Shown here: one piece after another, positions 4,472 through 31,931 of the stretch
How the letters are laid out: each line of letters begins with the position of its first letter
Numbering within the stretch: the stretch's first letter is position 1
Source: a virus
Taxonomy: Duplodnaviria; Heunggongvirae; Uroviricota; Caudoviricetes
DNA: 37,320 nt
Reading direction: 5' to 3' (one strand)
Virus record (IMG/VR): IMGVR_UViG_2534681604_000010
Span: 1-37,320 of that record
Program-made: the position numbers and the translations under genes
Notes under the pieces: model-generated
Database searches by the model: none
The model's input: only the letters and a program-made list of their open reading frames with translations
What the model was told of the DNA's origin: nothing

Positions 4472-7400
4472 GCGTCGTATCCCCCCTGATCGCTGTAGTT
4501 ACTCCTGGCTTTTGCCTTCAGCCTGCGTTCACGTTCATCAAGCTGGCGGGCCACCTCCCGCGCAATATCCTGCGCACTTTGTCCTGGCTGTGTCTGGATG
4601 ATGATCTGCGTCGGTGCTTCAATCCGGTAAATGGGCGGCACAGTAGCTGCACGACTCACCATCGCTTCACCGCCTTTTGCGGGAAGCGCCAAAGGATGCA
4701 ACGGTGGAAGCTCTGCTGGCGCGGCAGCAACACCCATCATTCCGGCGACAACGGCAGCCAGTGCAGCTGTATTTCTCCGGCTGGTCACGTTTGCCGGGCC
4801 GTTAACAATTTCCGGCCCGTTTTCACCGACGATGCCAAACTGCCCGCGCGGGATATAGCCGCCGCTGTCATACATCCCCGCAAAGCCATATCCCCATGAC
4901 GGAAAATCACCCGATGGCATCATCACTTTACCGTCTGCATTCACCGTCGCAGGTTGCTGACGCGTCACGCTTTCCGGCAGTTTCGCCTTTGCAGCCTCTT
5001 TACTGACAATGCCGAGTTTCTCCAGCAACCAGGAAACGCCGGATTTCAGGGAGTCCAGCGGATGCATGACCATATTCAGCCCTTCTGCCAGTGCCTCCCC
5101 GAATCGTCGCCCCATTGCCGCTGCGCTCTGCAGTTCGGCAGAGGTCGACTTAACGGGCGTCAGCAGATCAGTAAACCAGCCCCACAGCGCCTGCACTTTG
5201 TCGCCAATCCACTGGAACACGGGCTTAAGCGGTTCGAACGCTGCACTGATGGGACCTGCCGCCGCTTTGAATCCTTCCACCACGCCACCGAGAAATGCGG
5301 TGATGGGTTGCCAGTATTTCCAGACAACCAGCGCCACGCCCGCCAGTGCAGTAACCACAAGACCTATCGGACTGAGCAGAGCACCTAACAGACCAGATAT
5401 GGCATACAGGGCAACGCGCAGCATCGCCAGTGGACCAGATGCCAGTACTCGCAGCACCGTGCCTGCGGCGGCCAGTCCACCGCGCAGTACCGCCAGAGGA
5501 TTCATAAACATCACAGCAACAGCACATAAACCGGATAATCCAGACCGCAAAAGTGCAACCGGCGCACCTGCTACAGTTTTCAGGACATTTCCCGTCAGTG
5601 ATGCCGTGCGGCGCAAAGACGACAACGGCGCAGTAAGTAAACCTGCGGCGTTGCCCGATGAAGCAAGCCCGCGTCGCAGCAGTGCCAGTGGCGCGCCAGC
5701 CAGCCAGGACAACGCGCTGCTGGTTCGAGTTACTGCTGCCGTAACGGAAGATAACGTTTTGATACCCAACACAGAGAATCCCAGACGGATCACTGCCAGC
5801 GGCCCCAGCACTGCAGCCAGCGCCACCGCTAAGGTGCCGAGGCCGACGGTAACCGCAGCCACAACAGCCGATGCTTTCATCAGTGTGCCTGTCAGTTCCG
5901 GGTTAGCTTCCACCCAGCGACGCAACGCCCCCGTGACGCTTTTCACCGTGTACAGAATATCCATCAGCGGCTGGCGCAGCGTTTCGCCCAGGCTGCTGAA
6001 GGTGTTCTGCGCTCCGGTTTTGACCAGCAACCACTGCGCAGAAAGTGAATCCTTGTTAATGTCGGATTCTTTCTGCATGGAGCCGAGCGCATCATTGCCC
6101 GCTGTCAGTTTTAACTGACGCTGCAGTTCCGGCAGGTTGTTTGCCAGTTTCGCCGCGTCATCGCCAAACTCTTTACCAAACAACATAGTCATGGCAGACA
6201 GGCGCTTGTCCTGCGGCAGCGCGTTTACCTTCTCCAGCACGCGCTGGATGGTTCCCATCGCATCCTTCGTCATCTGCTTTTCAATCACTTCAGGATTGAG
6301 TTTCAGCAGATTCATCCCTTCAAAGAAACTCTTGCTTTGCATGGTGGCAATGGACAATTCACGCACCATCGCGTTTGCTGCACTGGCTGCAACCTCTGGT
6401 GCAGCGCCCAGTGTCAGGAAGGTGGAACCCAGCGCCGCCGCTTTACGATAATCCAGACGGTCAGCCACACCGCCCAGACGTTGCATCACATCAATGATGT
6501 CTGCCCCTTTCGACATGGCGTTATCATCCAGATAGTTCAGCGCATCACCGAGCTGTTCAATATTGCGGGTGGGGATTTTGTAGAGCTGGGCGATTTTCCC
6601 CAGACTTTCTGACAATTCATCCGCTGGCAGCTCAAAGGCTGTTGCCGCCTTTGCTGCCGTACTGGCGAAGGCCAGCAGGTCACGTTTCTGATCTTCCCAG
6701 CTGTCGTCAGGGTTTGCGACGTTCATGCGCGCACCACCTTCAACCAGTGCAGCGAAGTCCACCGCACCGTTTTCCATCGGCAACTGTTCGCTGGCAGCCT
6801 TGATGGCATCCTGCATTTCATAAAAACGTGCAGTGCGGTTGCCATTATCGTCACGCAGACCATTGACCTGCTTTGCCACACCTTTCATGGCATCTTCCAT
6901 GCTGGTATAGCTTTTTACTGCCGCCATCACTGGCGCACCCATTGCCAGCCCTGCAGCCGTGGTGGTGGCTCCGGCACCTGCAATACGATCACGCACCTCC
7001 AGCGAACGGGCATAACTGGCACGCGCTGCATTCATCCTGCGCTGAGCTTCCCCCAGTCGCTTCAGCCGCGCCTCCTGTTTCGAAAGTTCCTGGTTATAAC
7101 GTGATGTTTCACGGGCTAAACGGGCAGTTGCTCCCGCATCGTCTTTCGCAGAAATTCCCGCCCGGTACAGTTCAGCACGCACAAGCGCCGTCTGCTGCTG
7201 CAGCTTTTTCTGGCGTTCTTCCAGGCGCTGAACAGCCAGCCGTTGACGGCCCAGAGCAACAACCTGACGTTGCGAAGGCGGCCCCATCGCTCCCAGTTCC
7301 TGACTGAGCAAATTTGCACGCTGGCGGGCATAGTTCAGCCTGTCGCCTAATTTCTGATTTTCTGCCTGCAGCTTTCGGAAGCTGTCCAGACTGCTCCCGG

Positions 7401-9868: not shown

Positions 9869-10441
9869 TCAGGGGGATTCATTGATCTTATTTGCCGGAA
9901 ATTTTCTATAAATGGTAGAAACGCCTACATCAAAAATCAGTGCAATACGCTGTATTGATTCTCCGGCCTCGAGTAAACGCCCAATCTGTGCCCACTGTTC
10001 GGTGGTCAACTTAGGACGGCGTCCACCTACTCTGCCTTTGGCACGAGCTGCAGCCAGCCCTGCCCTGGTACGTTCAACTATCAGTTCGCGTTCCATTTCA
10101 GCCAGGGCACCCATGACATGAAAAAAGAAACGGCCCATTGGGGTACTGGTATCAATACTGTCAGTCAGGCTTCTGAAATTCACACCACGCTGGCGCAACT
10201 CTTCTATCAGCGTAACAAGATGCCGCATACTGCGCCCCAACCTGTCCAGCTTCCAGACAACCAGCGTGTCTCCTGCCGATAGTGTCCTGAGCAGTTTTTT
10301 CAACCCTAGTCTGTCGGACTTAGTGCCACTGATTTTATCCTCAAAAATCCGCTCACATCCCGCGCAGTTCAGTGCATTACGTTGCAAATCGGTGTTCTGG
10401 TCATTTGTTGACACGCGTACATAGCCAGTAAGCATGATCAT
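9869..10441 (-). CDS. Serine recombinase, DNA invertase of the Hin/Gin/Pin/Cin family
   Basis: N-terminus GYVRVSTNDQNTDLQRNAL with catalytic Ser motif, central VVWKLDRLGRS, C-terminal HTH; very close to e14 Pin / Mu Gin as recalled. The true start may be the second Met at 10435. Confidence 0.9.
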   Translation of the reverse strand: MIMLTGYVRVSTNDQNTDLQRNALNCAGCERIFEDKISGTKSDRLGLKKLLRTLSAGDTLVVWKLDRLGRSMRHLVTLIEELRQRGVNFRSLTDSIDTSTPMGRFFFHVMGALAEMERELIVERTRAGLAAARAKGRVGGRRPKLTTEQWAQIGRLLEAGESIQRIALIFDVGVSTIYRKFPANKINESP

Positions 10442-10491
10442 CTCCTAGAATAAAAATCGGGGATGATGCCAGTTAGTCGTAATCGCTGCAT

Positions 10492-10517
10492 TTTCTTAAA
10501 TGTTGTTTGGGAGAGGA
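10492..10517 (+). other. Degenerate hix-like crossover site (relic) about 50 bp upstream of the invertase gene
   Basis: TTTTCTTAAATGTTGTTTGGGAGAGG resembles the site at 12409..12434 (outer half-site, TT core, inner GGTTTGGGAGAA) but has a 1-bp deletion in the inner half-site. Confidence 0.35.
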
Positions 10518-10713
10518 GGCGAAACTCGACGCTGCACACAGTGTATTTTTTTATAGATCTTGGGCTATATTCCCATTAATAGGCTGTAATAAGTTAAGAG
10601 TGCAATGGGAGCGTTGGAAGGGAGATATAACAAGCACTACGTATAATTGTGATTTCACGTTTCCTATGTCATTTCATGAACTTGTTTCGGCGTATATTCA
10701 AGCGCAGGTGTAA
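10507..10713 (+). pseudogene. Orphan promoterless tail-fibre C-terminal cassette (probable remnant)
   Basis: ORF opens with TTG GGA GAG (L-G-E) inside the relic crossover site, in the same register as the alternative fibre tip at 12426; only 68 aa and no Tfa gene follows. Confidence 0.3.
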
Positions 10714-11016
10714 TGGCATCTAATTATGATTATGTATTATCTTATAGAATTTTAAGAAAAGCTGTTTCAATCATCTAACTAACGAAACCCGTTGTTAATG
10801 CTCAGTTTTTTCCTTGTCGATATGCTGCTTTGTAGCTGACGTATGTTTACTTGGCTTGTAATATGTTTCTAATTAAACCCTGTAGAGATCTTGATCATTA
10901 CTCAGGAAAGAATAATAAGCGGTTAGTTAAAATTCCCGCTAAGGCTGCACTTTAAAATGACAACTTTAGCGGAGGATAAATTGTACTTACATGTGTAAAT
11001 TTTAGGCATTAATTGT

Positions 11017-11439
11017 TTAAACTTTAGTCTCTGGTGAAGAGTCTTTTTTGAAGCTATCATCCTCCTTCTTCCCAAACATGTAACCTAGAGATAACGTAAT
11101 AATTGGGGTGAAAACAGCCCAAGAATCTTTAACTATATTTAAAGCTGACTGTCCCCCATTACTGAAGACATCAATCACTAATAATGCTGCAACAATACAG
11201 GAATAAATAGTCAGTGAATACGTTATTACATGCCAAACAACACTGTTTTTAGCATCATCACCTTTACCTATTTTATCGGGAATGCTTTCCTCGCTTTTAT
11301 TTCTCACTCTTACTGGAATATCACCATCCTGATAATCACCTTTGGTTGATTTTTTGCTTCTTGACGAACTACCTGAGATAGAAAAAGAGCCACCCGCCTG
11401 CTCATACTGTTCATACTGTTCATACTGTTCATCAGACAT
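11017..11439 (-). CDS. Hypothetical membrane protein: acidic EQY-repeat N-terminus, two predicted TM helices
   Basis: 140-aa ORF in AT-rich DNA; MSDEQYEQYEQYEQ then hydrophobic stretches ITYSLTIYSCIVAALLVIDVF and AVFTPIITLSLGYMFG; no similarity to P2 core genes that I recognise. Confidence 0.5.
   Translation of the reverse strand: MSDEQYEQYEQYEQAGGSFSISGSSSRSKKSTKGDYQDGDIPVRVRNKSEESIPDKIGKGDDAKNSVVWHVITYSLTIYSCIVAALLVIDVFSNGGQSALNIVKDSWAVFTPIITLSLGYMFGKKEDDSFKKDSSPETKV
11401..11431. repeat. In-frame 9-bp tandem repeat (TCATACTGT, about 3.3 copies) encoding the EQY repeats
   Basis: Read directly from the sequence; unit is a multiple of 3 so copy-number change keeps the frame. Confidence 0.8.
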
Positions 11440-11442
11440 AAG

Positions 11443-11880
11443 TCATTCCCCATCCGCATCCAGAACTTCTTCTTTTGTAGCTATATTTACCGTCAACAGA
11501 ATAGCATCATTATTTTCAGATAATGATTGGGTGGCAAAGAATAAATAATAGTTAAAAGTTTTCTTTTCACCGTTATTTGGTTCTAGGGTTTGTTTAAAAA
11601 ATCTTGTCCGAGTACCATCGTTAACACCTGCATCAACATGGAAAAAATTGATAAGATTAATATTTAACCCATCTTTAATCGTAGTTTTTACTCGAGGGAC
11701 AACCTCACCTTTTTCGTCTTCTTTTTTATCAACATCAAACTTAAGTCTTAATTTAAAATCGCCATAAAATTCAACTTCAGGGTTAGCAGCAAGAACCACC
11801 AATGTTTGAGAAAATACGACATCCATCCCCGATATTTTAGTTTTAATTTGCTTTTTCATTTGCACGCTCTTTTTTTGCAT
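11443..11880 (-). CDS. Hypothetical soluble protein (Lys/Asp/Glu-rich), middle gene of the AT-rich cassette
   Basis: 145-aa ORF ending 3 nt before the next gene; no family recognised. Start may be an internal Met. Confidence 0.5.
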   Translation of the reverse strand: MQKKSVQMKKQIKTKISGMDVVFSQTLVVLAANPEVEFYGDFKLRLKFDVDKKEDEKGEVVPRVKTTIKDGLNINLINFFHVDAGVNDGTRTRFFKQTLEPNNGEKKTFNYYLFFATQSLSENNDAILLTVNIATKEEVLDADGE

Positions 11881-12136
11881 TCAGATTACTATGATCTGGG
11901 TTATCATTTAACTTATTCAACGAAGGGCTATTCATACAGATATAATAAGTAATAAATATAATTATTATTACAATAAAGCCAGACTTACACATGATTCTAT
12001 ACATAAACTTCCCTATATCTTTAAATACTGATGTGTCGATAAGGGAAGGGACGCGCCATAGGAATCGACCAAAGGCAAAAAGGAATAATGTAACCATTAC
12101 TCCACTTGCTATATATATATAAATTTTGATATCCAT
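11843..12136 (-). CDS. Hypothetical small membrane protein (two predicted TM helices), first gene of the AT-rich cassette
   Basis: 97-aa ORF with hydrophobic segments IYIYIASGVMVTLFLFAFGRFLW and GFIVIIIIFITYYICM; overlaps the next gene by 38 nt. Confidence 0.4.
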   Translation of the reverse strand: MDIKIYIYIASGVMVTLFLFAFGRFLWRVPSLIDTSVFKDIGKFMYRIMCKSGFIVIIIIFITYYICMNSPSLNKLNDNPDHSNLNAKKERANEKAN

Positions 12137-12408
12137 AAAAACCTTAAATTAGTTTTTCTATCCATCGCTTAATAAAAAAGGTTGAAATGATAAACTCTTC
12201 ATCTATTGACGCACTATTTAATATCATATTTTATAGAATATGTCGAGTATAGTTTTAACTTGGATTCGATATAACCACAGAACCATCGCCAACACCTAAA
12301 GATGTCGTCCATCCTTTGACGACTAAAACTTAACACTCAATATGAATGGTTGTTTTATATACAGCCGCACCGTTCGTAGCGCATTGGAAACGTAAGGTAA
12401 ACGCATTA

Positions 12409-12434
12409 CTCTCTTTAAGGTTGGTTTGGGAGAA
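12409..12434. other. 26-bp hix/gix-like crossover site, invertase-proximal end of the invertible tail-fibre segment
   Basis: CTCTCTTTAAGG-TT-GGTTTGGGAGAA; the inner half-site plus core is a perfect 14-bp inverted repeat of 14295..14308. Confidence 0.6.
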
Positions 12435-12773
12435 GCGGCTAAAAGGAATGTAGGGACAGGGGCGAATCAGATACCTGATATGGGTAGCTTCACGCTTTCT
12501 GTTTCAGGTACTGGATATCAAAAATTACCATCAGGTTTTATTCTTCAGTGGGGCTCAATCGGCGCACCAGGCATTGCACAGGATGTAGTAACCCATTTCC
12601 CGATTGCATTTCCAAACAGATGTCTGCGTGTTTTGGTCTCACAAGACTACACACCAGATAGCGGGGCTGTTGGTTATATTGCCTGTGCAGGTTTTAGTCC
12701 CGACCCGGTTAAATTTATATCCAGAGCCAGTACTCCTGGCCTCGGCGCTTCATTTTTAGCGTTAGGCTGTTAA
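12426..12773 (+). CDS. Alternative tail-fibre C-terminal segment (silent in this orientation)
   Basis: The frame is open from 12396 and has no ATG of its own; it begins inside the crossover site with codons G-L-G-E, identical to the codons at the crossover site within H, so inversion would fuse it in frame to the H constant region. Confidence 0.65.
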
Positions 12774-12794
12774 TTTAGCTATATGGAGTGAAAA

Positions 12795-13235
12795 ATGAAT
12801 TACATATATTCCGCGACTACAAACTCTTTCTATCCGCTGGAGATGAAAGAGGATTACACTCAAGCTGACTCATGGCCAGATGATGCTGTTGAAGTTGATG
12901 AGCAGGTGTATATTGAGTTTTCCGGATTACCGCCGAAAGGAAAAATCCGTATCGCTGGAGAAAATGGTTTTCCTGCATGGTCTGAAATTCCACCACCAAC
13001 ACATGAGGAACAGATTGCTGCAGCCGAACTGGAAAAGCAGCAATTGATTAATCAGGCCAACGATTATATGAACAGTAAACAATGGCCTGGTAAAGCGGCT
13101 ATTGGTCGTCTGAAAGGTGACGAACTGGCGCAATATAATTTGTGGCTGGATTACCTGGACGCACTGGAACTGGTCGATACTTCCGGTGCGCCAGATATTG
13201 AATGGCCTACGCCTCCGGCAGTTCAGGCCAGATGA
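12795..13235 (+). CDS. Tail fibre assembly protein, alternative copy (Tfa', U'-like)
   Basis: 146 aa; C-terminus ...LWLDYLDALELVDTSGAPDIEWPTPP parallels the C-terminus of the active Tfa; convergent with it, 29-bp overlap. Confidence 0.8.
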   Translation: MNYIYSATTNSFYPLEMKEDYTQADSWPDDAVEVDEQVYIEFSGLPPKGKIRIAGENGFPAWSEIPPPTHEEQIAAAELEKQQLINQANDYMNSKQWPGKAAIGRLKGDELAQYNLWLDYLDALELVDTSGAPDIEWPTPPAVQAR

Positions 13236-23798: not shown

Positions 23799-25565
23799 AT
23801 GAACACCACACTGACACCCGCAGATCTCGATCCCCGTCGGCAGGCCATGCTGCTGTACTTTCAGGGATACCGCGTAGCCCGCATTGCTGAAATGCTGGGC
23901 GAGAAAGTTGCAACCGTTCACAGCTGGAAAAAACGCGACAAGTGGAGTGACTATGGGCCGCTGGATCAGATGCAGCTCACCACCGCCGCACGCTACTGCC
24001 AGCTCATCATGAAGGAGCACAAAGAAGGGAAAGATTTCAAAGAGATTGACCTGCTGGCGCGCCAGTCGGAGCGCCACGCGCGGATCGGCAAGTTTAACAA
24101 TGGCGGCAACGAAGCCGACTTAAACCCTAACGTCGCCAACCGCAATAAAGGCCCACGCCGTCAGCCGGAAAAGAATGTTTTCACCGATGAGCAGATTGAG
24201 AAGCTGGAAGAAATCTTCCATTCCTCCATGTTCAACTACCAGCGCCACTGGTGGGAAGCCGGAAAAACCAACCGCATCCGCAACCTGCTGAAGTCTCGCC
24301 AGATCGGCGCGACCTTCTATTTTGCCCGTGAAGCCCTGATTGACGCCCTGCTTACCGGACGTAACCAGATTTTCCTTTCTGCCAGTAAGGCTCAGGCCCA
24401 CGTCTTTAAACAATACATCATCGACTTCGCCAAAGAAGTCGAGGTGGAGCTAAAAGGCGATCCGATGGTGCTTCCTAACGGAGCCACGCTTTACTTCCTC
24501 GGCACCAATGCCCGCACGGCCCAGAGTTATCACGGCAACCTGTATCTGGATGAATATTTCTGGATACCGAAATTCCAGGAGCTGCGCAAAGTGGCTTCCG
24601 GGATGGCTATTCACAAGAAATGGCGACAAACCTATTTTTCCACGCCATCCAGCCTGACCCACAGTGCTTATCCGTTCTGGTCCGGTGCGCTGTTCAACCG
24701 TGGACGCAACAAAGCTGACAAGGTGGACATCGACCTGTCCCACAGCAATCTGGCCCCCGGCCTACTGTGCGCAGACGGGCAATACCGCCAGATAGTCACC
24801 GTGGAAGATGCGGTGCGCGGCGGCTGTAACCTGTTCGACCTCGACCAGCTGCGCATGGAGTACAGCCCGGACGAATACCAGAACCTGCTGATGTGCGAGT
24901 TCGTGGACGATCTCGCGTCCGTGTTCCCGCTCAGCGAACTGCAGGCGTGCATGGTGGACAGCTGGGAAGTCTGGACCGACTTTCATGCACTGGCCCTGCG
25001 CCCGTTTGGCTGGCGCGAAGTGTGGATCGGTTATGACCCGGCAAAAGGTACGCAGAACGGCGACAGTGCCGGATGCGTGGTGGTGGCTCCGCCAGCCGTG
25101 CCGGGTGGTAAGTTCCGCATTCTTGAGCGTCACCAGTGGCGCGGGATGGACTTCCGCGCCCAGGCTGACGCCATCAAAAAACTGACCGAACAGTATAACG
25201 TGACCTATATCGGTATCGACTCGACCGGCGTCGGTCACGGGGTTTACGAGAACGTGAAAGCGTTCTTTCCTGCCGTCCGAGAGTTTGTCTACAACCCCAA
25301 CGTTAAAAATGCCCTGGTACTCAAGGCCTACGACATTATCAGTCACCGCCGTCTGGAGTTTGACGCCGGACACACCGACATAGCGCAGTCCTTTATGGCA
25401 ATCCGTCGCGCCACCACCGCCAGTGGCAACCGCCCGACCTATGAAGCCAGCCGCAGCGAAGAAGCCAGCCACGCCGATCTGGCCTGGGCAACGATGCACG
25501 CACTGTTTAACGAACCGCTGCAGGGCGAATCCGCCAATACCAGCAATATTGTGGAGATTTTTTGA
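23799..25565 (+). CDS. P: Terminase large (ATPase) subunit gpP
   Basis: 588 aa; P2 P-like; divergent from O. Confidence 0.9.
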   Translation: MNTTLTPADLDPRRQAMLLYFQGYRVARIAEMLGEKVATVHSWKKRDKWSDYGPLDQMQLTTAARYCQLIMKEHKEGKDFKEIDLLARQSERHARIGKFNNGGNEADLNPNVANRNKGPRRQPEKNVFTDEQIEKLEEIFHSSMFNYQRHWWEAGKTNRIRNLLKSRQIGATFYFAREALIDALLTGRNQIFLSASKAQAHVFKQYIIDFAKEVEVELKGDPMVLPNGATLYFLGTNARTAQSYHGNLYLDEYFWIPKFQELRKVASGMAIHKKWRQTYFSTPSSLTHSAYPFWSGALFNRGRNKADKVDIDLSHSNLAPGLLCADGQYRQIVTVEDAVRGGCNLFDLDQLRMEYSPDEYQNLLMCEFVDDLASVFPLSELQACMVDSWEVWTDFHALALRPFGWREVWIGYDPAKGTQNGDSAGCVVVAPPAVPGGKFRILERHQWRGMDFRAQADAIKKLTEQYNVTYIGIDSTGVGHGVYENVKAFFPAVREFVYNPNVKNALVLKAYDIISHRRLEFDAGHTDIAQSFMAIRRATTASGNRPTYEASRSEEASHADLAWATMHALFNEPLQGESANTSNIVEIF

Positions 25566-26593
25566 TGGGAAAGAGTAAGAAAAACCGCGCTGTGTCGACG
25601 AACCAGATTCAGCATAAAAGCCAGACTTCAGCCGAAGCATTCAGCTTTGGCGATCCCGTTCCTGTTCTGGACCGCCGCGAACTGCTGGACTATGTGGAAT
25701 GCGTACAGACAGATCGCTGGTATGAGCCGCCAGTGAGTTTTGACGGACTGGCGCGAACCTTCCGCGCTGCCGTGCATCACAGTTCACCAATTGCGGTGAA
25801 ATGCAACATTCTGACCAGTACCTACATCCCTCACCCGCTTCTCAGCCAGCAGGCTTTTTCACGTTTTGTGCAGGACTATCTGGTATTTGGTAACGCTTAC
25901 CTGGAGAAACGCACGAACCGGTTCGGTGAAGTTATCGCCCTTGAGCCTGCTCTGGCAAAATACACCCGACGTGGGTTAGACCTGGATACCTACTGGTTTG
26001 TGCAATACGGTATGACAACCCAGCCGTATCAGTTCACGAAAGGCAGCATTTTTCATCTGATGGAACCAGATATCAACCAGGAGATCTACGGCCTGCCCGG
26101 TTATCTTTCTGCCATTCCGTCAGCCCTGCTCAACGAGTCCGCCACGCTGTTCCGCCGTAAGTATTACATCAACGGCAGCCATGCAGGCTTCATCATGTAC
26201 ATGACCGACGCCGCGCAGAACCAGGAAGATGTAAACAATCTCCGTAACGCGATGAAAAGCGCCAAAGGTCCAGGCAACTTCCGCAACCTGTTTATGTACT
26301 CGCCTAACGGCAAAAAAGACGGGCTTCAGATTATTCCTCTGTCAGAAGTCGCGGCAAAGGATGAATTTTTGAATATCAAGAACGTGAGCCGGGATGACAT
26401 GATGGCTGCGCACCGCGTGCCGCCGCAAATGATGGGGATTATGCCTAATAATGTTGGAGGGTTTGGGGATGTGGAGAAGGCGAGTAATGTTTTTGTAAGA
26501 AATGAACTAACATCATTGCAAAAAAGATTTGAAGAATTGAATATATGGTTAGGTAAAACTGTTATCAGTTTTGACGCCTACAAACTTGAATAA
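25562..26593 (+). CDS. Q: Portal protein gpQ
   Basis: 343 aa; ATGA overlap with P; P2 Q-like. Confidence 0.9.
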   Translation: MMGKSKKNRAVSTNQIQHKSQTSAEAFSFGDPVPVLDRRELLDYVECVQTDRWYEPPVSFDGLARTFRAAVHHSSPIAVKCNILTSTYIPHPLLSQQAFSRFVQDYLVFGNAYLEKRTNRFGEVIALEPALAKYTRRGLDLDTYWFVQYGMTTQPYQFTKGSIFHLMEPDINQEIYGLPGYLSAIPSALLNESATLFRRKYYINGSHAGFIMYMTDAAQNQEDVNNLRNAMKSAKGPGNFRNLFMYSPNGKKDGLQIIPLSEVAAKDEFLNIKNVSRDDMMAAHRVPPQMMGIMPNNVGGFGDVEKASNVFVRNELTSLQKRFEELNIWLGKTVISFDAYKLE

Positions 26594-26600
26594 TTATTTG

Positions 26601-26620
26601 AAAGGTGCCCTGGCACCTTT
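26601..26620. terminator. Hairpin between convergent Q and the accessory membrane-protein gene (likely bidirectional terminator)
   Basis: AAAGGTGC-CCTG-GCACCTTT perfect 8-bp stem, flanked by T-rich sequence. Confidence 0.45.
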
Positions 26621-27305
26621 ATCTATTGCACCTTGGATTAAACTTCCCTTCCACATAATTTACAACCTCAACAAATTCGCTACCATTTACCTCTCTAAAG
26701 CTAAAAACCCCTTTGCCATCTACGCATTTCTTTAAAACAAAATTTCCGTTATATTCTCCAACTACTATTTTTCCATCCAAGGTTTTCCATAGAACAGATG
26801 CAAACTGATTATGATAATTAATCCCTCCAAGAAAACTAGTAACTGACATAAAGAAAACCGTTAATATGGCATATACGAAATCTATATTAATCAAATCACC
26901 ACTTCGTTCAAATGTTTTGCACAACGACATTACCACCAACCATGAACAAATACCAAAAAGACCACCATTAAGATAGTTAACTAAGTCTTTTTCCCCCCTC
27001 TTAAAACTTAAAAAAACTGAAAATATTGTTATGGCAATAAAAATCCAAAGAACATACTTAATTTTATTAAGTTTAATCGCACCATCATTCAAAATAAAAT
27101 TAAAAACACCTATAATAATACTACCAAAATAGAAAAAAAGCTTTAAAGAAATATTCGCAACACTCGTTAAATCTAATGATATAAGTATTGCTGGATAACC
27201 AAAATAAACGGCCTCACCAAGTTTAAAAAAATATGCCAATATAAATAGCAACACCGTCAGTATTGTTACCAATGGAAAATCAAAGTTATTATTAAATTTA
27301 ACCAT
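26619..27305 (-). CDS. Hypothetical polytopic membrane protein (four to five predicted TM helices plus about 70-aa C-terminal soluble domain)
   Basis: 228-aa ORF in strongly AT-rich DNA between Q and cos; no family recognised. Confidence 0.55.
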   Translation of the reverse strand: MVKFNNNFDFPLVTILTVLLFILAYFFKLGEAVYFGYPAILISLDLTSVANISLKLFFYFGSIIIGVFNFILNDGAIKLNKIKYVLWIFIAITIFSVFLSFKRGEKDLVNYLNGGLFGICSWLVVMSLCKTFERSGDLINIDFVYAILTVFFMSVTSFLGGINYHNQFASVLWKTLDGKIVVGEYNGNFVLKKCVDGKGVFSFREVNGSEFVEVVNYVEGKFNPRCNR

Positions 27306-27360
27306 ACATTACAAGATTCCATTTTATTTTAATAGCGCCCACTTACGCAGACGCCCCATA

Positions 27361-27651
27361 TTATTCTTTAATAAGAGTACCCCAATCTACATCAGATTCT
27401 GCAACTACAATATTAATTGAACATTGTATGCACTCCTCACTTATTCTCGTATAAGTGAAATATCTAGTTTTAACAATACCACTAAACGAAGACCGACTAT
27501 TGTCATTACATATAGAGACAAAATCACCTACATTGGGAAGTAGAAGAAAAGGATTTTCTTCTGACGAACAGCCTACTATATCTCCGTCATCAATTGGTCT
27601 TGTGGACCCTTTAGGCAAGTATTGGTAATCATAGCTATATATCGTCTTCAT
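27361..27651 (-). CDS. Hypothetical small protein, upstream partner of the membrane protein
   Basis: 96-aa ORF, same strand, 55 bp upstream of 26619..27305; AT-rich. Confidence 0.45.
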   Translation of the reverse strand: MKTIYSYDYQYLPKGSTRPIDDGDIVGCSSEENPFLLLPNVGDFVSICNDNSRSSFSGIVKTRYFTYTRISEECIQCSINIVVAESDVDWGTLIKE

Positions 27652-27737
27652 AACCTATCATTTTCCATATCTAAAACTTCATAGAGGGACTAAATATCCT
27701 TCGCATTTTACATTTAGTCAATATTTTTCAATTCAAT

Positions 27738-27756
27738 CTGTTATGTCATCCCGCGC
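27738..27756. other. Candidate cos cohesive-end site
   Basis: Minus-strand GGCGTGGCGGGGATACGAG; the first 13 nt match the P2/186 cos end as I recall it (GGCG[A/T]GGCGGGGA); surrounded by GC-rich short repeats. Confidence 0.45.
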
Positions 27757-27936
27757 GCTCGTATCCCCGCCACGCCTGCCCGCTTTATGTAGCGGTTTTC
27801 ATGCGCCTGCATGACATAAGCAAAATCCCGCCACTCCTGGCGGGCCTCAGCTAAAACGATCCTCAAACGATCATGCGGATTCATGCGGCATAGACATGCA
27901 CAATCTCCAAAGCGGGCATCGAGACTTTTTGGAAAC

Positions 27937-28548
27937 CTACGTAACCACAGTTAATGTGTGCATCCTGTCTCGAATTGCATCACACGTCTCATCAAAAAGC
28001 TTGGTGATGGTTGTATGGTTCAACTCCGCCTCTTTCCAATAATTTTGCCCGTCAAATTCTGGATCGCTATGCTTAAACGATATTGACTCTGAAAGGCATT
28101 CCTTCCGGAAACGGTCCAAGATTATATAAACCTCTGGTGAGATGAACGGTTTGTTAGATTCAACACTTGTAACAAAAGTGTTAAATGCATCAGAAAAAAC
28201 TTTCAACCTTCTAAATTTTCTCTCTTCAAATGGTTCGTTGGGGTCAACATGATCCAGCGCAGGCCTCAGCTTAAGCACGCTTTCTCTGGTTTCAAACATC
28301 GAATTCCAAATGAGACTATATGCTGATAACTCCTTATCAAAATACGCTTTCGTTACATAAACAGAATTGTCTAACTTAGCCTTTATTCTTTCATTAGTTG
28401 CACTCAGTTGTGATTGAAATTCAGCAATATCTTTGTTTAGCCGCGACTTATATCTTTCTAAATAAACTTTCCCGATCCAAACAAATATGCCAGATGCAAC
28501 AAAAGACACCCCACCCAACGAAGCCAGAACTTTAAAGACTAAATCCAT
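27937..28548 (-). CDS. Hypothetical membrane-anchored protein (N-terminal TM helix, soluble C-terminal domain)
   Basis: 203-aa ORF; AT-rich; located between gene A and cos, the tin/old accessory position of P2. Confidence 0.55.
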   Translation of the reverse strand: MDLVFKVLASLGGVSFVASGIFVWIGKVYLERYKSRLNKDIAEFQSQLSATNERIKAKLDNSVYVTKAYFDKELSAYSLIWNSMFETRESVLKLRPALDHVDPNEPFEERKFRRLKVFSDAFNTFVTSVESNKPFISPEVYIILDRFRKECLSESISFKHSDPEFDGQNYWKEAELNHTTITKLFDETCDAIRDRMHTLTVVT

Positions 28549-29516: not shown

Positions 29517-31931
29517 TTAATACAGGTTCCGCCACTTATCATCTTCCTGCAAACGCTGGTTCCGATAGAAGACACGCAGGCCTGCTCCTGACGGAATACT
29601 GCCGCCGCGAAGGAGTAAATCGACCTCTTTCTCGCTGCCATCAAATCCTCTGGACTTCAGTTCATAGACGAGCTGCTGTCGTTGATGGTCTGTAATTCGC
29701 TGTTTGTAGTCTCTACGCCGTTTCGGTTTCACCAGGCGTAACCTTGCAGCCAGTTCCCGGCGCTCTTTTTTGTTCATACTGTGCAGGTAATCGTGCAACT
29801 CCTTGTCATCCATGTGGGTAATGTCCGTTCTGGTATCCCCATCAGCTGATTTGTCTTTCCCTTGTTGGTTCAAATTTTCAGCAAGGGGACAGTTATTGCC
29901 ACGAGTCCAAGGGGCGCAAGCGCCCTGGTCGGCTGCCGCCTCCTGAACGTCAACGGCCTTACGAACCATTTTCCACTTCACTGCATGAGTGCAGATCTTG
30001 CCCTCTGCAATGGGTGACCAGATGCCATAAATACGAATACCGTGATCACCATAGGCGGTCGGCTCTTCGTTGATTTCATAAGCGGTTCTGATCAAGTGAT
30101 ATTTGCGGGGAACCAACACGCCGCCCTGCTTCATAATGTAGGTGGCAAAACAGCCAGCATCAGCAGCAGCCAGAATGGCATCAAGACGCGGATCATCCAG
30201 TACCGGCGCACCTGCTTTTTTGTCACCCTGCTGCCTTGCCGCCTGACCAGCCAGCAATCGCAGTTCACGGTAAGCCTGACGCCCCGGAATGCCAAAGAAG
30301 CGGAATTGCTGAACACGATGCAGAGACGCCCAGGCATTAACGTATTCAGCGTTATCACGCAGGGATTTACCCGTTTCCTTGCTGATCTCGCCAGCCAGAC
30401 CACGCCCGTCAATGTTCTTACTGATGTATTTCGCGATGTAGCTTGTCGGCGTTCCTTTGCGCGGGTTAATCAGCTCAGACTTAAAGCGTGGCCCCGTGTT
30501 ATTGCCCAGTTCCTCGCGGTCTTCACGGATGGCAAACTTACGCAGTAATGCAGTGATGGCGCGGCGGTCTTTTTTACGCATGAAGCACATGAGATGCCAG
30601 TGCACAGTACCGTCATGATGCGGCTCAGCCACCCGCACGCCATACCACCGCAATCCGGCTTTGTGCATCGCCTTACGAAATGCAGCAAACATGCCGACCA
30701 GATAATCACTGCTTTGTCTTACCGTCGCATTTGTCCAGGTCGGGTTTGGTCTGCCGTTATTGAGCGTGGAATGGAAACGTGACGGACAGGTGATGGTGTA
30801 GAAAACGGCGCAGTCACCGCGCATTTCCGCGATAAGCTCCAGACCTTTAACGCAGGCCATCATCTCATTGCGGCGATGTGCCGGGTTGCTGCTGCTGGCG
30901 TTTACCACATCTTCCATATCCAGCGTGTCTCCGTCTTCGTTCACCAGTTCATGAGAACGGAAAAACTCCAGCGACTTGCGGCGCTGCTCACGTTTATGCG
31001 TCACTGCTTCATAGCTGACATAGGGAGATGCTTTTTTGCTGACCAGACAGACAGCACGCAACTGCTCTTCCCGCCATTCGCAACGCATCTTCCACAATTT
31101 TCGATACCACCAGTCGGCGCAAAGCATACGTGCCAGCGAACCCGGTATGAGTTCATAGGGCACAGGTTTGCGGCGGTTTCTTTTCCGACGAAGTTTCTCA
31201 AACGCAGGCGGGATAACATCCAGACGCAGGGTTTCCGCAGCCACCTTTTCCCATGTCTTGCGGATTTCTTCTGGCTTAACGTCATCGGTGGCGTACAAAT
31301 CACCACAAGCGGCCTCAAGACACATGCTCATATGCGCTGCTACCAGGGTGGACAGGCGTTTCACCTGATCCTGGCTCATTTCAGGCAGGATCAGCAGCCC
31401 CTCCAGCCCTTGATGGCTTGCCATAAAACGGAAAGAAACAGATAGCTGACTGTCACGTACACAATCCAGTCGCTCCAGACATGGCTTAATCGTCTCACGC
31501 AAATAGCGGGAATAAGCCTTTGGCCTGCCCAGGCTGCTGAAGTATTCGATACGTTGCATCAGCGGCTTGCTGATATGAGAAGGCTGGGCGCTGACATCTG
31601 CCAGAATGACCATGTCCGGGTTAAAACGCTGCTGCTCATGCGCCAGCTTTGCCCGGCTAATGAGCTTATCCTGCTCCATTTCGCGCTGGACAGGATCACG
31701 GGATTCATTAAAGAAATAACGCTCCCAGACCTGCTCACTCAGTGCCTCGCGGCGCAGTTGTTCCTGCTCGTTATCGGCAGCGTACAGAGTGATCAGGTTT
31801 GAAAGTGCAGACTCCGGCGCAACTTCCGCCGGATCCAGATAAGGGTTAATGGCCTTTTTCGGGCCGTTCCATGAAAATGCTGCGGCAGCCTCGTTAAAGC
31901 CGCTAGAGTTGCTCATATCGTCATGACTCAT
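29517..31931 (-). CDS. A: Replication initiation protein gpA (rolling-circle HUH endonuclease family)
   Basis: 804 aa; contains a GTVHWH motif; P2/186 A position. Confidence 0.85.

What the first reader, a model, noticed from the sequence alone, without database searches (positions are those of the whole stretch)
26594..27737. Accessory two-gene module (small protein plus polytopic membrane protein) between portal gene Q and cos
In P2 the interval between cos and Q is short and, as far as I recall, holds no genes. Here about 1.1 kb of very AT-rich DNA carries a 96-aa ORF (27361..27651) followed by a 228-aa protein with four to five TM helices (26619..27305), co-oriented and convergent with Q, separated from it by a hairpin terminator. 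This looks like an insertion at an unusual position and is a second candidate for an uncharacterised membrane-acting system.
Basis: partly seen in the sequence, partly recalled or inferred. Interest (0 to 1): 0.75.

Follow-up and report, generated by a model that had tools for sequence, protein, structure and literature searches.

The report
Cargo genes between prophage cos and portal
A P2/186-like prophage carries two uncharacterised accessory genes, for a small acidic protein and a five-helix membrane protein, in a cargo slot next to its DNA-packaging site; the slot is part of a published anti-phage hotspot, and the small gene also occurs alone, so this is a reasonable but unproven candidate for a phage-exclusion function.

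Summary
Two real genes under purifying selection lie in about 1.16 kb of 28-34% GC DNA between the portal gene Q and a correctly placed cos site. They encode a 96-aa protein (27361-27651, -) and a 228-aa membrane protein (26619-27305, -). P2 and 186 have only about 170-190 geneless bases there.

The position is not unusual. It lies inside the published gpA-gpQ defence hotspot. In E. coli relatives the same cos-Q slot holds SieB, DUF4145, PIN, Hypoth_Ymh genes, or nothing.

The "two-gene module" is separable. The small gene has its own conserved promoter and terminator hairpin. It stands alone in the slot in sister phages whose portal is 95% identical. It belongs to a widespread family on mobile elements (184 clusters at 50% identity). 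It also pairs with an unrelated 298-aa protein.

The membrane protein is rare and was only ever found downstream of the small gene. Its conserved face is predicted to be periplasmic.

Neither protein matches Pfam, PADLOC, NCBIfam or solved structures.

Best reading (0.4): nested moron-type cargo, with the membrane protein acting as an envelope-level exclusion factor expressed by read-through.

Main rival (0.3): an obligate sensor/antitoxin-plus-effector system.

Function is untested.

The parts
25562..26593 (+). Portal gene Q (context; left boundary of the cargo slot)
   Evidence: 343-aa ORF. The equivalent gene in homologous loci carries Pfam Phage_portal. It is 82-99% identical to the portals of related IMG/VR loci.
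26601..26620 (.). Hairpin between the Q stop and the membrane-gene stop; terminator-like in both directions and overlapping the membrane-gene stop codon
   Evidence: RNA fold gives an 8-bp stem at -10.9 and -10.7 kcal/mol on the two strands. A similar hairpin is present in L005 and L015. The strict terminator scan did not call it.
26619..27305 (-). 228-aa polytopic inner-membrane protein: five TM helices plus a roughly 60-aa C-terminal beta domain with two invariant cysteines
27334..27355 (-). Conserved GC-rich 9-bp hairpin between the small and membrane genes. It corresponds to the hairpin that lies between the small-gene stop and the Q stop in phages that have the small gene alone.
   Evidence: Fold at -13.5 kcal/mol. 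Consensus structure over 6 loci, with 3 of 9 pairs showing compensatory changes. The same GCGCCTGC..GCAGGCGC hairpin is seen in solo loci L048-L053.
27361..27651 (-). 96-aa acidic (pI 4.4, net charge -6) all-beta cytosolic protein with an invariant C-terminal WGxLIKE tail
27693..27721 (-). Sigma-70-like promoter, TTGACT-17 nt-GATATT, upstream of the small gene
   Evidence: Promoter scan, 9 of 12 matches. TTGACT/ATATT is conserved in most of the aligned cassettes (window, L005, L002, L008, L017; a variant in L016), including those on the other side of cos. The number of promoter-like sites in the region is no higher than in shuffled sequence, so the support comes from conservation, not from the scan.
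27755..27776 (-). cos core (GGCGTGGCGGGGATACGAGCGC); right boundary of the slot
   Evidence: Single motif match in the window, identical to that in Cartapus, whose record annotates a putative cos there. It is embedded in the conserved 27752-27903 island.

Best explanation
The interval is accessory cargo in the cos-Q part of the known P2 gpA-gpQ hotspot. It is built from two nested units rather than one indivisible system.

Unit 1 is a self-contained moron-like gene: a conserved sigma-70-type promoter, the 96-aa acidic beta-protein gene, and a GC hairpin. It is a member of a widespread family on mobile elements and can function alone.

Unit 2 is the 228-aa membrane-protein gene with its own downstream hairpin. 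It is inserted between unit 1's terminator and the Q terminator position. No promoter of its own was recognised, so it is probably transcribed at a low level by read-through from unit 1 in the lysogen.

The membrane protein is inferred to sit in the inner membrane with its N-terminus in and C-terminus out. Its conserved loops and a disulfide-capable beta domain would then face the periplasm. It most likely acts at the envelope as a superinfection-exclusion-type factor, interfering with genome entry of incoming phages or with another envelope-targeted attack, rather than as a cytosol-triggered suicide pore.

The small protein probably binds a conserved host or phage target through its invariant, disordered C-terminal WGxLIKE tail.

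Shown: gene reality, anatomy, cassette mobility, separability of the small gene, and hotspot context. Inferred: expression pattern, topology, and any exclusion activity.
For: Hotspot context: the gpA-gpQ interval is a published defence hotspot. The same slot in E. coli relatives holds SieB, DUF4145, PIN, TIGR02391 or nothing. PD-T4-10 sits on the other side of cos in L005.

Separability: the small gene is alone between cos and portal in L048-L053, whose portals are 82-95% identical to the window's Q. It is followed there by the same hairpin, which then lies between its stop and the Q stop. It pairs with an unrelated 298-aa protein in Klebsiella and Nissabacter. It is found on conjugative plasmids, between terL and portal of another phage, next to DUF4238 in a Zot-encoding element, and near FRG/PDC-S15 and Mu-like head genes.

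Promoter and hairpin conservation.

No promoter-like site was called upstream of the membrane gene.

Topology: K+R counts are 6-9 on the N-terminus, loop 2 and loop 4 side, against 1-3 on the loop 1 and loop 3 side. C194 and C226 are invariant. The predicted periplasmic side is more conserved (0.59 vs 0.41, Mann-Whitney p=1.7e-5). Loop 4 and the cytosolic half of TM4 are the least conserved segments, leaving no conserved cytosolic surface for the highly conserved small protein.

Both genes are under purifying selection.
Against: No functional data exist, and neither protein has detectable homology to any known exclusion or defence protein.

The membrane protein and the 298-aa protein were found only downstream of a small gene. 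In the small-protein tree, all paired copies fall outside the clade of solo copies. Both facts fit functional dependence as well as linkage.

The topology rests on a hand-applied positive-inside count and on an AF2 model from a 6-sequence alignment, in which only one of five models was confident. If the topology is inverted, the conserved face and the C-terminal domain become cytosolic and could bind the small protein.

The inter-gene hairpin in the window lacks a good U tract, so the two genes may simply be co-expressed.
Confidence: 0.4

Rival explanations
1. It is an obligate two-component abortive-infection or toxin-antitoxin-like system. The small cytosolic protein is the conserved sensor, regulator or antitoxin, made in excess because of the attenuating hairpin. 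The downstream gene is an interchangeable toxic effector: the 5-TM protein here, and a Zn-finger/His-rich 298-aa protein in Klebsiella. On infection the effector is released and depolarises or permeabilises the membrane, in the manner of lambda RexAB.
For: The pair is conserved as neighbours, with a 41-55 bp gap, while the membrane protein diverges to 39% identity. The membrane and 298-aa proteins were never seen without the small gene upstream. The small gene can occur without them, which is the asymmetry expected of an antitoxin or regulator.

Partners are swapped repeatedly within one small-protein clade without ever leaving it partnerless (9 paired loci). One shared promoter and no separate one for the effector was recognised. 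Invariant charged residues K28, E31, D45 and K55 lie in TM1 and TM2. Downstream neighbours elsewhere are effector-like: FRG/PDC-S15, EEP nuclease, GNAT and TM proteins.
Against: The small gene stands alone in the same slot in phages with a 95%-identical portal and in many unrelated mobile-element contexts with no consistent partner. A conserved terminator hairpin separates the two genes. The predicted cytosolic loops of the membrane protein are poorly conserved. There is no homology to RexA/RexB, to any PADLOC model, or to known toxin or antitoxin domains. All partner occurrences lie in one phage lineage, where linkage alone explains co-occurrence.
Confidence: 0.3
2. The membrane protein is a lysogenic-conversion factor not aimed at phages. 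For example, it could be an envelope-modifying enzyme acting at the periplasmic face, or an immunity protein against a bacteriocin or contact-dependent toxin. The small gene would be an unrelated neighbour.
For: Conserved polar residues cluster on the predicted periplasmic side: loop 1 GYP..SLDLT, loop 3 DxVxYL, NYHNQ at the end of TM5, and the Cys-containing domain. Non-defence cargo such as Acyl_transf_3, partition systems and toxins is also recorded in the P2 hotspot.
Against: There is no similarity to any enzyme, transporter or immunity family by sequence or fold. The family is extremely rare and confined to P2-like prophages. Identified cargo in the same slot of relatives is mostly exclusion- or defence-flavoured.
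Confidence: 0.12
3. The small protein is a counter-defence (anti-defence) factor of mobile elements. It would be an acidic small protein that binds a conserved host defence or housekeeping protein through its C-terminal tail. The interval would then serve the phage's own establishment rather than host protection.
For: The family is acidic (median pI 4.8 over 72 members). It is about 95 aa and stand-alone, and is spread over phages of several types and conjugative plasmids. It has its own promoter and terminator. Its disordered C-terminal tail is invariant or nearly so.
Against: The charge (-4 to -8) is far from that of DNA mimics. No similarity to known anti-defence proteins appeared in the BFVD or PDB fold searches. 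It does not explain the membrane protein.
Confidence: 0.1
4. The ORFs are non-functional remnants, or chance ORFs in AT-rich junk DNA.
For: Very low GC, weak Shine-Dalgarno sequences, and no family annotation.
Against: dN/dS is 0.09 and 0.13. Full-length homologues occur across Enterobacterales and beyond. AF2 models are confident to moderately confident.
Confidence: 0.02

Closest known systems
Cargo of the P2 gpA-gpQ (cos-proximal) defence hotspot (Rousset et al. 2022, PMC9122126)
   Same: It lies between gpA and gpQ next to cos, has low GC, and is swapped among phages with near-identical backbones. The neighbouring slot contents are defence systems or defence-like genes: PD-T4-10, SieB, PIN, DUF4145, Hypoth_Ymh.
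   Different: This gene pair was not found in the part of that paper's Table S5 that is held, and the accession searched was for the small protein only (the file is truncated). It is absent from 5,426 complete E. coli genomes. No anti-phage activity has been tested. It usually sits on the Q side of cos, whereas old and tin of P2 are on the A side.
Phage morons: promoter-gene-terminator units inserted between core genes (concept from HK97/HK022 comparative genomics; from my own knowledge)
   Same: AT-rich, with its own sigma-70-like promoter and a terminator hairpin. It is inserted between core elements and is present or absent among close relatives.
   Different: Here two units are nested, and the second appears to lack its own promoter.
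Lambda RexA/RexB and mycobacteriophage Sbash gp30/31- or Butters gp30/31-type prophage exclusion pairs (from my own knowledge)
   Same: Prophage-borne and lysogen-expressed, pairing a soluble cytosolic protein with a polytopic inner-membrane protein.
   Different: There is no sequence or profile similarity. The soluble partner here is much smaller (96 aa) and occurs alone. The conserved face of the membrane protein is predicted to be periplasmic.
Inner-membrane superinfection-exclusion proteins: SieB in the same slot of E. coli relatives; T4 Imm and HK97 gp15 (the last two from my own knowledge)
   Same: A single prophage membrane protein placed in an accessory slot. SieB occupies the identical cos-Q slot in the same orientation.
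   Different: No homology was found. The Pfam scan, whose library I believe includes a SieB family, gave no hit. No injection-blocking activity has been shown.
Promiscuous antitoxin domains such as PanA/DUF4065 that pair with many unrelated toxins, including small TM toxins (from my own knowledge)
   Same: One conserved small protein lies upstream of unrelated, effector-like downstream genes.
   Different: There is no homology. A terminator hairpin separates the genes. Many solo occurrences exist. Neither toxicity nor neutralisation has been tested.

Membership tests
P2 gpA-gpQ hotspot cargo | Located between replication gene A and portal gene Q, adjacent to cos | tested here: met
   A at 29517-31931 (-), cos at 27755-27776, Q at 25562-26593; definition taken.
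P2 gpA-gpQ hotspot cargo | Content varies among otherwise closely related phages | tested here: met
   Flanks match in 1281 of 5426 E. coli genomes, and none carries this cargo. Alternative cargos are listed. Sister phages with a 95%-identical portal carry the small gene only.
P2 gpA-gpQ hotspot cargo | Confers resistance to other phages | not testable with these tools
   Needs cloning and a phage challenge.
RexAB-like two-component abortive infection | Homology to RexA/RexB or to any catalogued defence protein | tested here: not met
   No PADLOC, Pfam or NCBIfam hit for either protein.
RexAB-like two-component abortive infection | The two genes always occur together | tested here: not met
   The small gene is solo in L048-L053 and L040 and on plasmids. 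The membrane gene, however, always follows a small gene.
RexAB-like two-component abortive infection | Polytopic inner-membrane effector | tested here: met
   Five predicted TM helices.
Type II toxin-antitoxin | Tight bicistronic operon with a recognisable toxin or antitoxin fold, and toxicity neutralised by the partner | tested here: inconclusive
   A shared promoter is likely, but a conserved hairpin separates the genes. No toxin or antitoxin domain was found. A weak GD-box/cradle-loop-like match is seen for residues 14-49 only (E 0.007). Toxicity is not testable here.
Superinfection exclusion membrane proteins (SieB and others) | Sequence membership of a known Sie family | tested here: not met
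   No Pfam or PHROG functional hit.
Holins | Match to a holin family above its cut-off | tested here: not met
   Only TIGR01606 BlyA at E 0.044 and 13.8 bits, against a cut-off of 52.85.
Double-psi / cradle-loop beta-barrels (small protein) | Fold-level similarity over the whole domain | tested here: inconclusive

The most novel reading that the evidence does not exclude
The 96-aa protein defines a widespread, undescribed family of mobile-element proteins. It would act as a universal sensor or adaptor, or as a promiscuous neutraliser, that arms interchangeable effectors: the 5-TM protein here, a Zn-finger/His-rich 298-aa protein in Klebsiella, and possibly FRG, EEP, GNAT and TM proteins elsewhere. 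That would be a new modular anti-phage system family whose membrane effector has no known relatives.
Probability: 0.2. Interest if true: 0.75.

Novelty: new variant of a known kind. Interest (0 to 1): 0.45.

Why it matters
P2-like prophages are a major reservoir of E. coli and Enterobacterales immune genes. This analysis separates out a distinct sub-slot (cos to Q) of the published hotspot and shows how cassettes are nested and swapped there.

It also surfaces two protein families with no annotation. One is a very rare 5-TM protein whose conserved face is predicted to be periplasmic. The other is a widespread ~95-aa acidic protein with an invariant C-terminal tail, found on phages of several types and on conjugative plasmids.

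If either has exclusion or counter-defence activity, it would add a new component class and a simple cloneable test case of 1.1 kb with its native promoter. If not, the interval is ordinary hotspot cargo.

Tried and rejected
- Exact P2 cos (GGCGAGGCGGGGAAAGCAC, up to 3 mismatches): no match. A relaxed motif found the Cartapus-type cos.
- Pfam, PADLOC, NCBIfam: nothing for either protein. PHROGs gave unknown-function families only.
- tblastn of both proteins, and of the 298-aa partner, against 50,697 phage records: no match.
- Megablast and blastn of the module against complete E. coli genomes: no match. The exact proteins do exist in other (non-RefSeq-complete) E. coli assemblies.
- PDB sequence and profile searches: only a marginal GD-box match to designed DPBB proteins.
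- A precomputed 'faint' Pfam TfpB tag on the Enterobacter homologue could not be reproduced. The only TfpB found in the literature search is a cytosolic pilus motor, so it was rejected as noise.
- Weak hit of a Photobacterium downstream TM protein to Csx27 (E 1e-4): not pursued, and that protein is not homologous to the window protein.
- A broad 72-sequence alignment was too divergent for the search for related loci.
- Literature search for PHROG ids and accessions: nothing.
Full report
**1. What is in the sequence**

The window is a P2/186-like prophage, read in reverse relative to the P2 map.
- The large terminase gene is at 23799-25565 (+) and portal gene Q at 25562-26593 (+).
- Replication gene A is at 29517-31931 (-).
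- The CI/CII-type regulators and the integrase lie towards the right end.

They sit in DNA of 28-34% GC, against about 55% in the structural genes.

The exact P2 cos is absent. A relaxed motif finds one site, GGCGTGGCGGGGATACGAGCGC, on the - strand from 27776. It is identical to the sequence inside the annotated putative cos of phage Cartapus. It lies in a 150-bp island (27752-27903) that is conserved in many P2-like phages while the DNA on both sides is not.

In P2, cos is at 1-19, terminator tQ at 160-181 and the Q stop at 187. In 186 the equivalents are 1-19, 164-187 and 196. Both reference phages therefore have a geneless interval of about 170-190 bp where this prophage has about 1,160 bp.

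**2. The genes are real**

Both proteins have full-length homologues. Against the Enterobacter hormaechei copy, where synonymous sites are not yet saturated, dN/dS is 0.09 for the small gene and 0.13 for the membrane gene.

**3. Fine anatomy, read along the - strand from cos**

- A sigma-70-like promoter, TTGACT-17-GATATT (27721-27693), is conserved upstream of the small gene in most of the aligned cassettes.
- The small gene follows.
- Next is a 9-bp GC-rich hairpin (27355-27334; -13.5 kcal/mol). It is conserved in six diverged loci, with compensatory changes at three pairs.
- About 30 nt further on is the membrane gene, which has a weak Shine-Dalgarno sequence. No promoter-like site was called upstream of it.
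- A second hairpin (26620-26601) overlaps the membrane-gene stop codon and lies 8 nt from the Q stop.

**4. The two proteins**

The small protein:
- It is acidic (pI 4.4, net charge -6; family median pI 4.8) and has no signal peptide.
- It is predicted to be all-beta (AF2 pLDDT 77).
- Its C-terminal tail is disordered but invariant or nearly so: G91, L93, K95 and E96 are invariant among 15 close homologues.
- It has no Pfam, PADLOC or NCBIfam match.
- A profile of 72 family members gives a marginal match (E 0.007) to designed double-psi beta-barrel proteins, over residues 14-49 only (RPxD..G....LPNVGDxVxI, a GD-box-like element). I treat this as a lead, not an assignment.

The membrane protein:
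- It has five long helices and a beta domain of about 60 aa at the C-terminus. Only the best of five models was confident, and the alignment had six sequences.
- Lys+Arg counts are 6-9 on the N-terminus, loop 2 and loop 4 side, against 1-3 on the loop 1 and loop 3 side, across six homologues. This favours an N-in/C-out topology.
- The C-terminal domain has two invariant cysteines, C194 and C226. This is compatible with a periplasmic disulfide.
- Under that topology the periplasmic half is significantly better conserved than the cytosolic half (mean pairwise identity 0.59 vs 0.41, p=1.7e-5). Loop 4 and the cytosolic half of TM4 are the least conserved segments.
- No family or fold match was found.

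**5. Distribution and context**

The membrane protein is very rare. Only six clusters exist among 5.8 billion proteins, even with a profile search, and only three IMG/VR loci were found. Every copy with usable context lies in a P2-like prophage directly downstream of a small-protein gene. The hosts include Enterobacter, Kosakonia, Pantoea and metagenomic contigs.

The exact window proteins are present in Escherichia assemblies. They are in none of the 5,426 complete RefSeq E. coli genomes.

The small protein is far more widespread.
- There are 15 close clusters and 184 clusters at 50% identity with E<=1e-3. Nearly all are stand-alone proteins of 90-100 aa.
- They come from Halomonas, Pseudomonas, Vibrio, Photobacterium, Brevundimonas, Rhodoferax (a tandem pair) and a Synechococcus.
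- They also occur on conjugative Pseudomonas plasmids and a Pantoea plasmid.

Three facts show that the small gene is separable from the membrane gene.

(i) Alternative partner. In Klebsiella, Raoultella and Nissabacter P2-like prophages it is followed in the same slot by an unrelated, soluble 298-aa protein. That protein has CxxC...Cx8C and His-rich motifs and no family match.

(ii) Solo occurrence. In six IMG/VR P2-like contigs (L048-L053), whose portal proteins are 82-95% identical to the window's Q, the small gene stands alone between cos and Q. The same GCGCCTGC..GCAGGCGC hairpin then lies between its stop and the Q stop, in the position of tQ. The membrane gene and the second hairpin therefore look like an insertion between the small gene's terminator and Q.

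(iii) Varied neighbours elsewhere. These include:
- an FRG/PDC-S15 protein, an EEP nuclease further downstream, one- to four-TM proteins, and a Mu-like head gene;
- a GNAT protein;
- DUF262+HEPN genes and IS elements;
- DUF4238 in a Zot-encoding element, and a position between terL and portal in another phage.

Most copies are followed by their own hairpin.

**6. Points in favour of a functional pair**

- The membrane and 298-aa proteins were never seen without the small gene.
- The pair keeps a 41-55 bp spacing while the membrane protein diverges to 39% identity.
- In a neighbour-joining tree, all solo small proteins form one clade. All nine paired copies fall outside that clade, with TM- and 298-type partners intermixed. 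Partners have therefore been swapped repeatedly, but the slot behind this small-protein type was never found empty.

All of this comes from one phage lineage, so linkage alone could produce it.

**7. The position is not unusual**

Rousset et al. (PMC9122126) defined the P2 defence hotspot as the cos-proximal region between gpA and gpQ. They catalogued 1,650 gene arrangements there.

Using the window's flanks, 1,281 of 5,426 complete E. coli genomes have a related portal end and/or cos island. Where both flanks are joined, the cos-Q slot holds, in the same orientation as here:
- a DUF4145 protein (also seen in phage Cartapus);
- SieB;
- a PIN protein;
- a TIGR02391/Hypoth_Ymh protein;
- a 416-aa hypothetical;
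- or nothing.

Those cargos appear in the paper's Table S5A.

The pair is also not tied to the Q side of cos. In Kosakonia (L008/L009) and in L017/L018 it lies on the A side of a functional P2- or 186-type cos, which keeps the usual ~170-bp geneless gap to Q. In those loci a degenerate copy of the Cartapus-type cos sits just upstream of the small gene. The cassette therefore seems to have arrived with its old cos, which has since decayed.

In Enterobacter L005, the other side of cos carries the known PD-T4-10 system.

**8. Interpretation**

The most economical reading is nested moron-type cargo in a known hotspot. An autonomous small gene has its own promoter and terminator. A rarer membrane-protein gene is inserted behind it and is expressed by read-through.

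I favour an envelope-level exclusion role for the membrane protein (confidence 0.4) for three reasons:
- its conserved surfaces are predicted to face the periplasm;
- its cytosolic loops are poorly conserved;
- the identical slot in relatives holds single exclusion-type genes such as SieB.

The main rival (0.3) is an obligate sensor/antitoxin-plus-effector system of the RexAB or toxin-antitoxin type. It is supported by the asymmetric co-occurrence and the partner swapping. It would gain decisively if the topology is inverted or if the proteins interact.

Lesser rivals are a non-defence lysogenic-conversion role for the membrane protein (0.12) and a counter-defence role for the small protein (0.1). 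Chance ORFs are excluded by the selection signal.

**9. Novelty and score**

The two protein families are undescribed, and the small one is widespread on mobile elements. I rate it a new variant of a known kind, with interest 0.45.

The most novel reading not excluded is that the small protein is a universal adaptor or neutraliser for interchangeable effectors. I give this probability 0.2, with interest 0.75 if true.

Noticed in passing
L008:4870-4910 and L017:4870-4905 (upstream of the small gene); functional cos at L008:6352 and L017:6353: In Kosakonia and one metagenomic P2-like prophage, the small+membrane pair is preceded by a degenerate Cartapus-type cos (..GGTGTAGCGGGGATACGAGCGCGC). An intact P2- or 186-type cos follows it. 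The cassette seems to have been imported together with its old cos, which then decayed.
   Followed up: partly
window 27937-28548 (-): A 203-aa protein with an N-terminal TM segment and coiled-coil-like region (phrog_26391) on the A side of cos. Its E. coli homologue is annotated 'valyl-tRNA synthetase' in RefSeq. That annotation probably stems from a sub-threshold match to the Val_tRNA-synt_C coiled-coil arm (16.7 bits against a cut-off of 25.9), so it is likely a misannotation of another hotspot cargo gene.
   Followed up: partly
window 27741-27884 (-): A 47-aa ORF (phrog_28685) overlaps the cos core. The equivalent ORF is annotated as a 64-aa hypothetical protein in E. coli genomes. Its conservation may reflect the cos site rather than coding.
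   Followed up: no
window 9869-13235: A Hin-like serine invertase (9869-10441) lies next to a 30-37% GC stretch. The stretch holds two ORFs with no family match (11017-11439 and 11443-11880), a tail-fibre C-terminal fragment (12426-12773) and a tail-fibre assembly gene (12795-13235).
   Followed up: partly
L021:5995-6291 and 6456-6755: A Rhodoferax MAG carries two tandem copies of the small-protein gene.
   Followed up: no
L058:2981-4294; L056:2564-5687: In a Zot-encoding (inovirus-like) element, the small gene follows a DUF4238 gene by 10 bp; DUF4238 is a family shown to protect against T7 in PMC9122126. In another phage, the small gene sits between the large terminase and portal genes.
   Followed up: partly
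L005:4147-5750: The Enterobacter hormaechei sister prophage carries the known PD-T4-10 system (A and B proteins) on the A side of cos. That prophage therefore has cargo on both sides of cos.
   Followed up: yes
L044/L045 (IMGVR_UViG_2541047905_000004, 48,006 bp): One IMG/VR contig holds two inverted copies of the region (99% identical to the window). This may be an assembly artefact or a duplicated prophage.
   Followed up: no
L002:6398-7294 (Klebsiella) and L010:5413-6309 (Nissabacter): The alternative 298-aa partner has a CxxC...Cx8C motif and a DFPHYHF...N.N..H stretch, which is reminiscent of a zinc-ribbon plus His-Me-finger nuclease. It has no family or PDB match and was seen only downstream of the small gene.
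   Followed up: partly
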